Positions 655 through 14,558 of a stretch of DNA of 37,698 nt are shown piece by piece. A program made the translations under genes and the position numbers. Source of the DNA: Octopus sinensis (lineage: Eukaryota); the NCBI RefSeq assembly GCF_006345805.1, contig NW_021835938.1, positions 1 through 37,698 of the forward strand, in the 5' to 3' direction. A model generated the notes under the pieces. That model was given only the letters and a program-made list of their open reading frames with translations, ran no database searches and was not told where the DNA came from. Within the stretch, counting starts at the first letter, position 1. Every line of letters starts with the position of its first letter.

Positions 655-1128
655 TAAGTTAAGTTTAAGTTAAGTTAATTTTTTGGCTCAAAAAGCAAAA
701 AGCAAGGCCATGTAGGGGGACATGGAGTTATGTACATGGAGGGTGTTCATGCAAAGAGTTCAGGCCATTTCTGGGCAAGAGAGACTTTGAACCGAGCGGT
801 CGTCGGCATCTTCACTATCTCGTCCGGCAGCTTGTTCCACGGATCCACAACCCGGACGGAGAAAGCTCCTCTCCGACTGAGATGAAATCGTCGCGGATAG
901 AGCTTTTCGGAGTGATCCCGCAGCCGACGCTCTGGAGCAGGAGTGAAGAACAGCTCTTTCGAGAGGTTACACTTTCCGTTTATGATGTTGTGAGCAAGAA
1001 TGAGATCACCACGGCTTCGTCGTTTTTCTAGAGAATAAAGGTCGAGCGTCTTCAGCCCTTCTTCATAAGACAAATGCTTAAGACCTAGAACCATACGGGT
1101 AGCCAGCTTCTGGACTCTTTCGAGATAA
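655..1128 (-). mobile_element. 5'-truncated CR1/L2-clade LINE: ORF2 C-terminus, 3'UTR and (TAACT)n-like tail
   Basis: Minus-strand peptide LERVQKLATRMVLGLKHLSYEEGLKTLDLYSLEKRRSRGDLI..FSVRVVDPWNKLP is typical of the post-RT C-terminus of CR1/L2 ORF2. Stop at 747-749, short 3'UTR, tandem tail at 655-678. Confidence 0.9.
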
Positions 1129-1170
1129 TAAGAAGGTAATGAGCACAAATGTGATATTTGGCAATGTACA

Positions 1171-1380
1171 GGAGGGAAGGCAACGTTATCACACCAGGCA
1201 AAATGCTCAGCAATATTTCGTCCATCTTCTAAGTCCAAATTCCGACGAGATTGACTTTGCCTTTCTTTCATCCTTTCAGTGTCGGTAAAATAAATACCAA
1301 CTGATCACTGGCATCGATGTAATCGACTTAACCGCTCTGCTGTAATTGCTGGCCTTGTGCCAAAATTTGAAATCAATATT
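1171..1380 (+). mobile_element. SINE family C copy (core gactttgcctttcatcctt..taaaataaatacc)
   Basis: Similar to 1401-1615 and 24087-24196. Ends in tggccttgtgccaaaatttgaaa. Confidence 0.75.
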
Positions 1381-9201: not shown

Positions 9202-9659
9202 ATGACAGATGAAGTTGTCATGGCCATACTTGCTCAGACGCCTATGCAATGTTGCAGAAAGTGTATGGAGAGGAGTGTATGAGCCGCACACAAGTGTACG
9301 AGTGGTTCAGACGTTTCCAAGATGGCGGAAAAAATGTCGATATTGACGAACGTTCTCGGAGAGCCGCAAACAGTAGAACTGAGAAAAAAATCACAGATGT
9401 GCCCGCTGCTGTGAGAGGAAATCGTCGAATCACCATCTGTGAGTTATCAGAGGCTGTGCAGATTAGTTACGGTTCATTTCAGTCCATTATCACTGAAGAT
9501 TTGTGTATAAGACGCGTGTCTGCCAAGTTTGTGCCAAAACTGCTTTCAGCTGACCAAAAAGACACTCGGGTTTCAGTTACACAAGATCTCCTTGATTGTG
9601 TCGAGAACGATGAAAACGTTCTGAAAACTTTGCACAGGCGTCTGAGCAGGTATCGCTAA
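9202..9659 (+). pseudogene. Truncated mariner (Tc1/mariner) transposase: HTH DNA-binding domain and linker only
   Basis: MLQKVYGEECMSRTQVYEWFRRFQDG..ELSEAVQISYGS..RVSAKFVPKLL (equivalent to the WVPHEL linker). It ends just before the expected first catalytic TGDE. The original ATG is at 9202, followed by a small deletion. The open stretch is 9249-9659. Confidence 0.88.
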
Positions 9660-12097: not shown

Positions 12098-12908
12098 TTA
12101 TTATACCTATTACATTGTTTTTGCTTACTGATACAGCCTAATTCAAATTCATCATTAATTTATATTGTCGCATCAAAGATCGCATCGAGAATGTAACTCC
12201 GTACAGAGACGGATTGAATTAAAAGATGTGCACCAATAAATCTGTTAAAAAATACGAGTGGAGTATTCTCCGGTGACCTCCGTTTTTTTAACGTATAAGC
12301 TTATACACAAATACATATATATATATCTATAATATCTCTCTCTCTCTCTCTATATATATATATAAATGTATATGTGTGTGTGTCTGTATGTATGTAATAT
12401 ATATATATATATAATGTATATTTACTTCCATATGTAAGAATCCATTTGCCTGTACCAATGTGTACATATACATATATATACTTATGCATATATATGTATA
12501 TTTATGTGTGGGTGGGTGGGTGTGCGTATACATGCACATATATACCTATGTACATATGCATATATATGTATATCATACATATATATATACATACACATAC
12601 ACACATACACTCGCATATATCTCGCATATATGTGTGCGTGTGTTTGTGTGTGTGTATGTTTGTGTTTGTACGTACACATACATATATATATATATTTGTG
12701 CGTATATATAAACAGAAATTGAATGAAAGTCAGAAGCAGGTGTATATATGTACATCTGAGGACGTGAGTATAAGCGTATGTTTTCTTAGTATAATCACTG
12801 TATAGGCACACAATGAAAATAAATTCGATATGTATGCGTCTATAAATGTATGCGCATACATGTATGCATTATATATATATATATATTATATATATATATA
12901 TTATATAC

Positions 12909-13113
12909 GCGAGAAAGAAGCAACAAGAATGGATAAGTTTTTAGTACAATCGTTTCATACAAAGACAGGCTTATTAAAAGAACTCACATGTATTTTAGCT
13001 GATGAGTACGGGACACGTTTATATGCTGCAATTTTTGTAACTTTTAATAAAGCCTGTCTTTGTATGAAACGATTGTACTAAAAACTTATCCATTCTTGTT
13101 GCTTCTTTCTCGC
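12909..13113. repeat. 72/73 bp near-perfect inverted repeat with 60 bp spacer (PLE-type inverted pLTR)
   Basis: 12909-12980 is the reverse complement of 13041-13113 except for one indel. The left flank is (TA)n. Confidence 0.95.
12993..13083 (+). ncRNA. Type I hammerhead ribozyme (intact core), predicted cleavage after GUA at 13077
   Basis: Stem I UUUUAG/CUAAAA. CUGAUGA at 12999-13005. Stem II GUACGGGACA/UGUCUUUGUAU. GAAA at 13066-13069. Minimal stem III A-C-[GAUU]-G-U. Confidence 0.75.
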
Positions 13114-13224
13114 TTATAATCACCCCACATTACTGTATTGTTAAAACCGTATAGTTTTTTGGTGCATCTAAGTTAGGTACCATATTCAAGTAAATTCATT
13201 AAAATTGACTTGAATCTTTATTGC

Positions 13225-13451
13225 TTGGCTGACCGGTTTGCGGAACACCTTCGTGACATCCACCTTGCGAACGACACACCGGTCTCACGCCATTTCCGCT
13301 CCACCGGTCACTCCTTGCAACACCTATCTGTGTTCGGTTTGTCCTTACACAGAGGCCATCCGGATTCCCGTTTGCGCCGTGAACAGGAATTAATCTTCTC
13401 TCTTCGCTCTTATACGTCATTTGGTCTCAACTCTCCCCCCTCCTCATCTAA
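13225..13451 (+). pseudogene. Penelope-like element GIY-YIG endonuclease, C-terminal fragment
   Basis: LADRFAEHLRDI..PVSRHF..GHS..LSVFGL..RLRREQELIFSL..GLN matches the PLE GIY-YIG C-terminal pattern (RxxEH, PVxxHF, E, GLN). Confidence 0.85.
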
Positions 13452-13829
13452 CCCCCCTCCTCCCCCCTCCTCACCTATCCTTTCTCCCCCCGACCCCTAC
13501 TTCTTCAGTCCTTCATCCTTTCACCCCTACTCCCCTTCCCTTCTTCCCTCTTTCTCCCTCCCTCTTCCCTTCCCTCTGCTCCCTCACTCCCTCACTCCCT
13601 CTCTCCCCTTCTCTCTCCCCTTCTCTCTCCCCTTCTCCCTCTTCCTCCTTCATCCCCCTCCTCCCCTTCCTTCTCCCCCATCCTCTCCTCTTCCCCCTTC
13701 TCCTCCCCATCTTCTTCCCCTCCCCTTCTTCCCCCCTCTCTCCCCCTCCCCTCTTCCCTCACTACACCACATGACTTTACACATCACATCACATATGATG
13801 TGCCATACTAATACACACACCAACTAATA

Positions 13830-14145
13830 CATACTAATACGTACTAATATATACTAGTACAATACTAATACTTACACCAACCCTATACATACACACGTCC
13901 AGACCCCGCATACGCACTTATACTCTCTCACACACACACACACACCTATACATACCAATACGTACTAATACATACTAATACATACTAATACATACACCAA
14001 CCCCATACATACGCACGTCCAGACCAATCCTACGCACTAATACTCTCTCATCACACACACCACACACACACACACACACCTTATACATACTAATCATACA
14101 CCAACCCTATACATACACACATCCAGACCCCTCCCACGCACTATT
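13830..14145. repeat. Three imperfect ~100-125 bp tandem units
   Basis: Repeated catactaata..acaccaaccc.atacatac.cac.tccagacc..acgcact. Confidence 0.85.
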
Positions 14146-14313
14146 AGCTGGTCCCTCAACCCTTTATCAACCCTATTATCTCCCCTTATTTCGCTCTCGC
14201 GTCTCATGTTTGATCTTTGACCTCTGGCCGAAATCAGATCGCCATGTTGATTCGTTAGCTACTGCACGCATTTTTTTTCTCTCCTTCTTTCTGTGTTTTT
14301 CTCTCTCTGTGTA

Positions 14314-14351
14314 TCTTTCTGTTGAAGAGCGTAGGCTCGAAACGTTAAAGA
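14314..14351 (+). ncRNA. Minimal type I hammerhead-like motif (variant core CUGUUGA)
   Basis: Stem I UCUUU/AAAGA, CUGUUGA-A, stem II GAGC-guag-GCUC, then GAAA-CG-UU with palindromic ACGU in place of stem III. Confidence 0.55.
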
Positions 14352-14446
14352 CTTGTTTTTTATATTTCCTGAGCGCCATGCTAATACAATTGTTCATTTG
14401 TTTTCCACCTGCCTTCGTCTTTTGTTTATTTTCATAAAGCTTCCCG

Positions 14447-14558
<112 letters not shown>

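What the first reader, a model, noticed from the sequence alone, without database searches (positions are those of the whole stretch)
12909..13113. Intact hammerhead ribozyme preceded by its own antisense copy
Seen: a type I hammerhead with both catalytic boxes intact (CUGAUGA 12999-13005, GAAA 13066-13069), a perfect 6 bp stem I and a GUA cleavage triplet. Immediately upstream is a 72 bp inverted copy of the ribozyme's 3' half and downstream flank. Known: Penelope-like elements carry hammerheads in their pLTRs and often leave inverted partial pLTRs. Inference: a read-through transcript would form a ~72 bp duplex that hides GAAA and the cleavage site, while a transcript starting in the spacer could self-cleave. 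The duplex is also a candidate ADAR substrate, relevant if this is a coleoid.
Basis: partly seen in the sequence, partly recalled or inferred. Interest (0 to 1): 0.72.

Follow-up and report, generated by a model that had tools for sequence, protein, structure and literature searches.

The report
Penelope hammerhead sealed by inverted copy
This is the broken-off end of a Penelope-type jumping gene joined head-to-head to a shorter inverted copy of itself, as most of its sister copies are; its self-cutting RNA motif has an unusually long, conserved second arm and is predicted to cut only in pairs, and the antisense arm is likely a by-product of insertion rather than a switch.

Summary
In detail: an intact type I hammerhead (12993-13083) and an inverted copy at 12909-12980 (72/73 bp, one indel). 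Both are pieces of a young Hydra-clade Penelope-like element (RWK, DKT, CxCX5C, CxxC/CxH motifs in sister copies; 4.6-kb unit; (TA)n targets). A hammerhead-core pattern matches 3,124 times in the genome (control 1). The inverted arm is the family norm: 25 of the 29 closest copies have one, arms start at a fixed tailless end and stop anywhere from 50 to >1,500 nt, and 28 of 30 sampled arms cover the whole ribozyme. The layout is published, so an evolved antisense switch is unlikely. Stems I and II covary. Helix III alternates between palindromes, which points to dimer cleavage. Unusual versus published Hydra ribozymes: a 60-nt helix II (10-24 nt in print), missed by Rfam, and a ~115-nt tail. 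This copy's tail is fused through GCTT to a second, Neptune-like element. Cleavage, transcription and editing are untested; no laid contig spans the arm junction. This scan noted the same long-helix hammerheads earlier on other DNA.

The parts
12870..12907 (.). (TA)n microsatellite, left flank; likely the insertion target
   Evidence: sister copies are flanked by (TA)n
12904..12980 (-). Inverted, 5'-truncated, tailless copy of the element's 3' end (73 nt of element sequence); holds GAAA, helix III and the cleavage site but no CUGAUGA
   Evidence: the same tailless TA junction occurs 663 times
12979..12980 (.). 2-nt (AG) overlap at the head-to-head junction of the arm and the direct copy
12979..13226 (+). 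Direct 5'-truncated 3' end (pLTR plus tail) of a Hydra-clade Penelope-like element, family A; 98-99.6% identical to 29 other loci
   Evidence: upstream RT and endonuclease ORFs in longer copies
12993..13083 (+). Type I hammerhead: stem I 12993-12998/13078-13083, core 12999-13005 and 13066-13068, predicted cleavage after 13077
13006..13065 (+). 60-nt helix II with an inner hairpin; one private change (T13038, C in 29 of 29 closest copies) turns a G-C pair into G-U
13069..13076 (+). Helix III, self-complementary 8-mer ACGATTGT (ACGATCGT or ACAATTGT in other subfamilies); predicted dimer interface
13114..13226 (+). Tail (113 nt here, about 117 with TTTG in sister copies); lies upstream of the ORF in tandem copies
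13223..13226 (+). GCTT shared by the family A tail end and the family B interior; this junction occurs once in the genome
13223..14447 (+). 5'-truncated second Penelope-like element (family B, Neptune-like): end of the GIY-YIG endonuclease and 3' region, followed by (TA)n from 14448

Best explanation
This locus is the truncated 3' end of a young Hydra-clade Penelope-like retrotransposon joined head-to-head to a shorter inverted copy of itself in a (TA)n repeat, and the antisense arm is likely a by-product of insertion that would seal an otherwise intact hammerhead predicted to cut only as a dimer. Shown: family membership, the two fixed outer ends (tailless at 13113, tailed at 13226), the variable inner breakpoints, and covariation of helices I, II and III. 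Inferred: the element's enzyme nicks (TA)n and starts cDNA at two sites of a read-through RNA, each next to a TATA-like stretch. The two short cDNAs, or one cDNA folding back on itself, join through a short overlap (AG here). Inferred: the ribozyme is kept by selection on tandem master copies, where two motifs 4.6 kb apart could pair through helix III, probably with protein help. In this copy it is a passenger with no ORF and no partner motif. The tail later or simultaneously became joined to a Neptune-like element through a 4-nt microhomology.
For: Long sister copies carry RT plus a C-terminal endonuclease with the Hydra motifs (against the criteria). 25 of the 29 closest other loci have an inverted arm: 20 within 1.5 kb and 5 further out; L009 and L010 overlap one place. 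Of the first 100 of 3,124 core matches, 25 neighbouring pairs within 6 kb are head-to-head, 0 tail-to-tail and 5 tandem. In the first 30 of 663 tailless junctions, arms run from 50 to >1,500 nt and 28 cover the whole hammerhead; 21 have an adjacent direct copy, 9 of them with breakpoints symmetric within 10 nt. Covariation on 21 rows: 91% of cells paired against 83.2% shuffled (0/500) and 35-49% for slid controls; both-side changes in 3 of 6 stem I pairs and 9 of 21 helix II pairs. In 20 of 45 hits of a pattern without stem I, 3.35 of 4 stem I pairs form against 1.95 shuffled (0/2000). The layout is in print.
Against: No cleavage, transcript or editing data exist for this locus. The helix II base pairs 1-4 were fixed by my search pattern, and the rows are related, which inflates covariation; two of the five measures were not clearly above shuffles (26/500 and 217/500). 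RNAalifold prefers pairing the CUGAU core with helix III over the open core, and helix II closes with G-U rather than the conserved G-C, so this subfamily's ribozyme may be weak. Every ORF in the four long copies read is frameshifted. Pfam gave no hit for the RT or endonuclease pieces, so clade assignment rests on motifs read by eye, without a tree.
Confidence: 0.87

Rival explanations
1. Evolved antisense switch: the arm is kept to turn the ribozyme off in read-through RNA, while a transcript starting in the spacer cleaves.
For: The arm covers GAAA and the cleavage site but not CUGAUGA, and raises the cost of the hammerhead fold from about 7 to about 61 kcal/mol.
Against: Arm length is arbitrary across copies. 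The mirror case (intact motif on the arm, partial cover from the direct copy) occurs in 2 of 21 paired insertions (L128, L136). The copy differs from its sisters by about 1%, which leaves little time for selection. None of the 32 ORFs of 120 aa or more in the window looked like a host gene by eye.
Confidence: 0.04
2. The structure is real in kind, but this particular locus (arm junction or A-B fusion) is an assembly artefact on a small unplaced contig.
For: The window is a whole 37.7-kb unplaced contig. The A-B junction is unique, and this is the only one of 30 loci whose tail lacks the T-run and (TA)n.
Against: The arm ends at the family's own tailless junction (GCG-TATA), not as a mirror of the direct copy (GCT-TATA), which a read fold-back would give. 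The left flank has no second near-identical copy in the assembly. Microhomology junctions are described for these elements.
Confidence: 0.06
3. A MITE or other DNA transposon with 72-bp terminal inverted repeats and a TA target duplication.
For: Seen alone, 12909-13113 has long inverted ends in TA-rich DNA.
Against: The element continues 113 nt past the right arm, and upstream into RT and endonuclease ORFs in other copies; arm lengths vary.
Confidence: 0.01
4. The motif is a decayed, non-cleaving relic, and helix II is kept only as a protein-binding or packaging structure.
For: Low predicted monomer folding and a G-U closing pair. In the one PLE reconstituted in vitro, ribozyme mutants did not impair insertion.
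Against: All core positions except the cleavage nucleotide are invariant in 21 of 21 rows while surrounding helices change. The helix III palindrome is kept through G-C/A-U swaps. This rival concerns activity and does not conflict with the origin given above.
Confidence: 0.15

Closest known systems
Hydra clade of endonuclease-bearing Penelope-like elements (Craig et al. 2021, PMC8557442; passages, section 11, supplement part 2 and supplement search hits read), including Hydra-1_Obim and Penelope-13_HM
   Same: RWK, DKT, CxCX5C, CxxC and CxH motifs, C-terminal endonuclease, (TA)n targets, hammerhead near the 3' end. Penelope-13_HM is listed with a 5'-truncated inverted copy and a hammerhead on both strands.
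   Different: Unit of 4.6 kb against generally <3 kb. Helix II spans 60 nt against about 10-24 nt in the Hydra rows of File S2. Tail about 115 nt against 30-40. The hammerhead sequence differs from that listed for Hydra-1_Obim.
Metazoan PLE hammerheads (Cervera and De la Pena 2014, PMC4209133; parts 1-2 of 4 read)
   Same: Type I motif with a short palindromic helix III thought to act as a dimer; pairs of motifs on opposite strands 100-700 bp apart were noted in Schistosoma.
   Different: Much longer, multi-segment helix II; G-U at 10.1-11.1 in this subfamily (G-C in 11 of 21 rows).
PAc Poseidon element in vitro (Frangieh et al. 2024, PMC11167929; parts 1-2 of 4 read)
   Same: Two reverse-transcription start sites explain tailed and tailless ends; both DNA strands are cut and extended; the ribozyme needs the element's protein.
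   Different: Different clade. Here both ends lie next to TATA-like RNA sequence matching the (TA)n target, whereas PAc starts at sites not homologous to the target.
Adineta vaga Penelope elements (Arkhipova et al. 2013, PMC3846280; passages read)
   Same: Head-to-head inverted pLTRs, optional tail, palindromes at inverted junctions, microhomology joins, asparagine-rich inserts in the ORF.
   Different: Low copy number there; thousands of motifs here.
PLE-X1_sMoe hammerhead and 'HHR_half_core' Naiads (PMC8557442, File S2 and methods passage)
   Same: Precedent for a widely spaced core: a 53-nt helix II region in PLE-X1_sMoe; half cores 35-50 nt apart in some Naiads.
   Different: Other clades; no covariation or palindromic helix III analysis in the parts I read.

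Membership tests
Hydra-clade PLE | Single RT ORF with C-terminal GIY-YIG endonuclease | tested here: met
   RT then endonuclease in L032, L158, L160, in frameshifted pieces; read by eye, Pfam silent
Hydra-clade PLE | RWK motif and DKT in place of DKG | tested here: met
   RRIRWKTY and PADKTGN in L044 and others
Hydra-clade PLE | CxCX5C linker; CxxC and CxH around conserved E and N; no CCHH motif | tested here: met
   CKCRIKSKC, CQLC..E..N..CVH in L032; no CCHH seen by eye
Hydra-clade PLE | Insertion in (TA)n | tested here: met
   29 of 29 other loci end in (TA)n-like sequence; the window copy has it on the left only
Hydra-clade PLE | Generally short (<3 kb) | tested here: not met
   Tandem spacing 4,627 and 4,620 nt; a tendency in the paper, not a diagnostic
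Hydra-clade PLE | Placement in the clade by RT phylogeny | not tested
   No tree built; reference proteins were seen only as paper text
Type I hammerhead ribozyme | Core CUGANGA, GAAA, NUH with three helices, helix I open | tested here: met
Type I hammerhead ribozyme | Helices supported by covariation | tested here: met
   with the caveats on relatedness
Type I hammerhead ribozyme | G10.1-C11.1 pair | tested here: not met
   G-U in the window and 10 of 21 rows; G-C in 11
Type I hammerhead ribozyme | Match to an Rfam hammerhead model | tested here: not met
   None on the window or on 9 of 9 other loci; likely due to the long helix II
Type I hammerhead ribozyme | Self-cleavage | not testable with these tools
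   Needs an in vitro assay or raw reads
Non-LTR retrozyme | Short non-coding tandem repeats, each with a hammerhead | tested here: not met
   Single motif here; the family encodes RT and endonuclease; definition from part 1 of preprint 10.64898/2026.07.22.740005

The most novel reading that the evidence does not exclude
Several Penelope families in this genome share a distinct hammerhead class with a 45-70-nt conserved helix II and a palindromic helix III, invisible to Rfam. The long helix is the docking site through which the element's own RT-endonuclease switches on cleavage and picks the two nearby cDNA start sites. Because most insertions are head-to-head, the insertion mechanism itself seals their ribozymes and leaves cleavage to tandem master copies.
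Probability: 0.15. Interest if true: 0.6.

Novelty: new variant of a known kind. Interest (0 to 1): 0.3.

Why it matters
The finding as posed is ordinary for Penelope-like elements. What remains of value is that thousands of these motifs in one animal genome escape Rfam because of a long helix II. Natural swaps in the helix III palindrome also give sequence-level support to the dimer model. A young family with fixed tailed and tailless ends and hundreds of inverted junctions is good material for the open question of how PLE inversions form.

Tried and rejected
Rfam: no hammerhead hit; the miRNA-like hits are far below gathering scores and only reflect hairpins. Pfam: no hit for the family A or family B pieces. 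Expression: no RNA holder listed; only assembled contigs could be laid, so start sites, cleavage ends and A-to-I edits could not be examined. No listed contig of 4 runs bridges the arm junction at 12980, and none of the listed pieces in 4 runs bridges 13226; the tool states that such holes prove nothing. One run covers the left flank with another allele. No empty or duplicate site was found for the left flank. The promoter scan is bacterial and uninformative here. MITE and retrozyme readings were rejected (see rivals and membership). L084 and L099 gave no motif under my filter and were left out of alignment A1; the other 18 of the 20 loci were picked by me for distinct sequence. Literature: one search for hammerhead + octopus + Penelope listed only PMC8557442; searches listed no title on long-helix-II PLE hammerheads. 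I saw listings only for most of these, and bioRxiv supplements are closed, so absence from print is not established. The organism was not determined; 'octopus' comes from an earlier AI note on this genome.

Full report
Observation. CTGATGA, GAAA, GTA and a 6-bp stem I are present, and 12909-12980 is the reverse complement of 13041-13113 with one missing A. The hairpin is far more stable than shuffles (z = -23.6). Helix II spans 60 nt and closes G-U; helix III is 2 bp around GAUU. Rfam finds no hammerhead here.

The element. The stretch 12979-13226 is a young repeat: 1,725 candidates, with the 40 scored at 98-100% identity. In the 29 other loci fetched, it ends at the same place and is followed by a short T-run and (TA)n. 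Longer copies continue upstream through about 1.5 kb of non-coding sequence into an RT and a C-terminal endonuclease with asparagine-rich inserts. They carry RWK, DKT, CxCX5C, CxxC and CxH, the motifs given for the Hydra clade in PMC8557442, section 11. Tandem copies place hammerheads 4,627 and 4,620 nt apart, and the sequence after the hammerhead runs into the 5' end of the next ORF. All four long copies read are frameshifted, Pfam gave no hit and no tree was built.

The arm is the family norm. 20 of the 29 closest loci have an inverted copy within 1.5 kb and 5 more have one further out. All start at the same tailless end next to (TA)n; that junction occurs 663 times exactly. In the first 30 of these, arms run from 50 to more than 1,500 nt. 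28 cover the whole hammerhead and 2 only its 3' half; 21 have an adjacent direct copy, and 9 of those 21 break within 10 nt of the same position on both sides. A core pattern matches 3,124 times against 1 for its control. Among the first 100 listed, 25 neighbouring pairs within 6 kb are head-to-head, none tail-to-tail and 5 tandem. The window copy (arm 73 nt, direct 134 nt upstream of the tailless end, AG overlap) is the short end of this range. The layout is in print: inverted 5'-truncated copies and optional tails (PMC8557442 passages), Penelope-13_HM with a hammerhead on both strands (its supplement), opposite-strand motif pairs in Schistosoma (PMC4209133), and head-to-head pLTRs with junction palindromes (PMC3846280 passages).

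The ribozyme is conserved as a structure. In 21 rows (window, L037, L106 and 18 of 20 loci picked for distinct sequence), the core is invariant apart from the cleavage nucleotide. 91% of cells pair, against 83.2% in shuffles (0/500) and 35-49% when slid. Both-side changes occur in 3 of 6 stem I pairs, 7 of 14 outer and 2 of 7 inner helix II pairs. Two other measures were not clearly above shuffles (26/500, 217/500), the rows are related, and my pattern fixed the first four helix II pairs. A cleaner test used 20 of 45 hits of a pattern with no stem I information, several from other families: 3.35 of 4 stem I pairs form, against 1.95 in shuffles (0/2000), with helix II spans of 44-70 nt. Two of these 20 loci show related ORF pieces upstream. 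The helix III 8-mer alternates between ACGAUCGU, ACAAUUGU and the wobble form; these self-pair at -10.0, -6.4 and -5.8 kcal/mol. A two-base loop cannot close such a pair within one molecule (established RNA folding knowledge), so the swap favours the dimer model described in PMC4209133.

What the arm would do. In a read-through RNA the hammerhead fold costs about 61 kcal/mol; without the arm it still costs 6-7 kcal/mol as a monomer, because the core can pair with helix III. In the PAc element the ribozyme cleaved only with the element's protein and was not needed for insertion in vitro (PMC11167929). This copy has no ORF, no second family A core in the window and 12 nt between arm and stem I. 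Expression and editing could not be examined.

Mechanism (inferred). The enzyme nicks (TA)n and starts cDNA at two sites of a read-through RNA, giving tailed and tailless ends as shown for PAc. Here each end adjoins TATA-like RNA sequence (TTATAAT after 13113; TTTGAATATAT after the tail). Two cDNAs, or one that folds back, join at a short overlap. Arms longer than their direct partner (for example L128, L136, L145, L148) fit two independent cDNAs; symmetric breakpoints fit either model.

The right junction. The tail lacks its usual T-run and (TA)n and continues through a shared GCTT into a second young element, 99% identical to its sisters over 224 nt and extending to 14447 and another (TA)n. 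Its CX4CxxC linker and endonuclease look Neptune-like by eye. The junction is unique. A microhomology join at or after insertion of the second element is the simplest reading; a template jump or misassembly is not excluded.

Verdict. Real ribozyme motif, known layout, passenger copy. The differences from the published Hydra elements I read are the long covarying helix II (10-24 nt in File S2), the roughly 115-nt tail and the 4.6-kb unit. A long helix II has a precedent in PLE-X1_sMoe. Earlier notes of this scan reached similar readings on other DNA; I formed mine before reading them, and they are not independent evidence. Interest 0.3.

Noticed in passing
window 14314-14351 (+): Family B carries a minimal hammerhead (stem I TCTTT/AAAGA, 4-bp helix II, no helix III loop) whose core reads CUGUUGA instead of CUGANGA; the same core is in 10 of 11 sister loci. 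A search for 'A6U' found no occurrence in the 7 papers listed.
   Followed up: partly
window 13223-13226: Unique fusion of two young Penelope-like families through a 4-nt microhomology; the composite 12909-14447 is flanked by (TA)n on both sides.
   Followed up: partly
L105, L107, L110-L121, L123 (around 1500): Other families with long helix II (44-70 nt) share the helix III sequence GAAACGATYGT and have different, pairing stems I.
   Followed up: partly
L132, L133, L140, L143, L144, L146, L147, L151, L153: 9 of 21 paired insertions have near-symmetric head-to-head breakpoints, some at short palindromes such as CATATG.
   Followed up: no
L037:3473-4566: A second, diverged Hydra-like ORF fragment lies about 5 kb upstream of a family A copy.
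   Followed up: no
window 9213-9659 (+): Open frame resembling the N-terminal part of a Tc1/mariner transposase (recognised by eye).
   Followed up: no
window 747-1304 (-): Open frame resembling the C-terminal end of a LINE reverse transcriptase (recognised by eye).
   Followed up: no
window 13813-14067: A 120-nt tandem repeat and a pyrimidine-rich tract lie inside the 3' region of family B and are shared by its sister copies.
   Followed up: no
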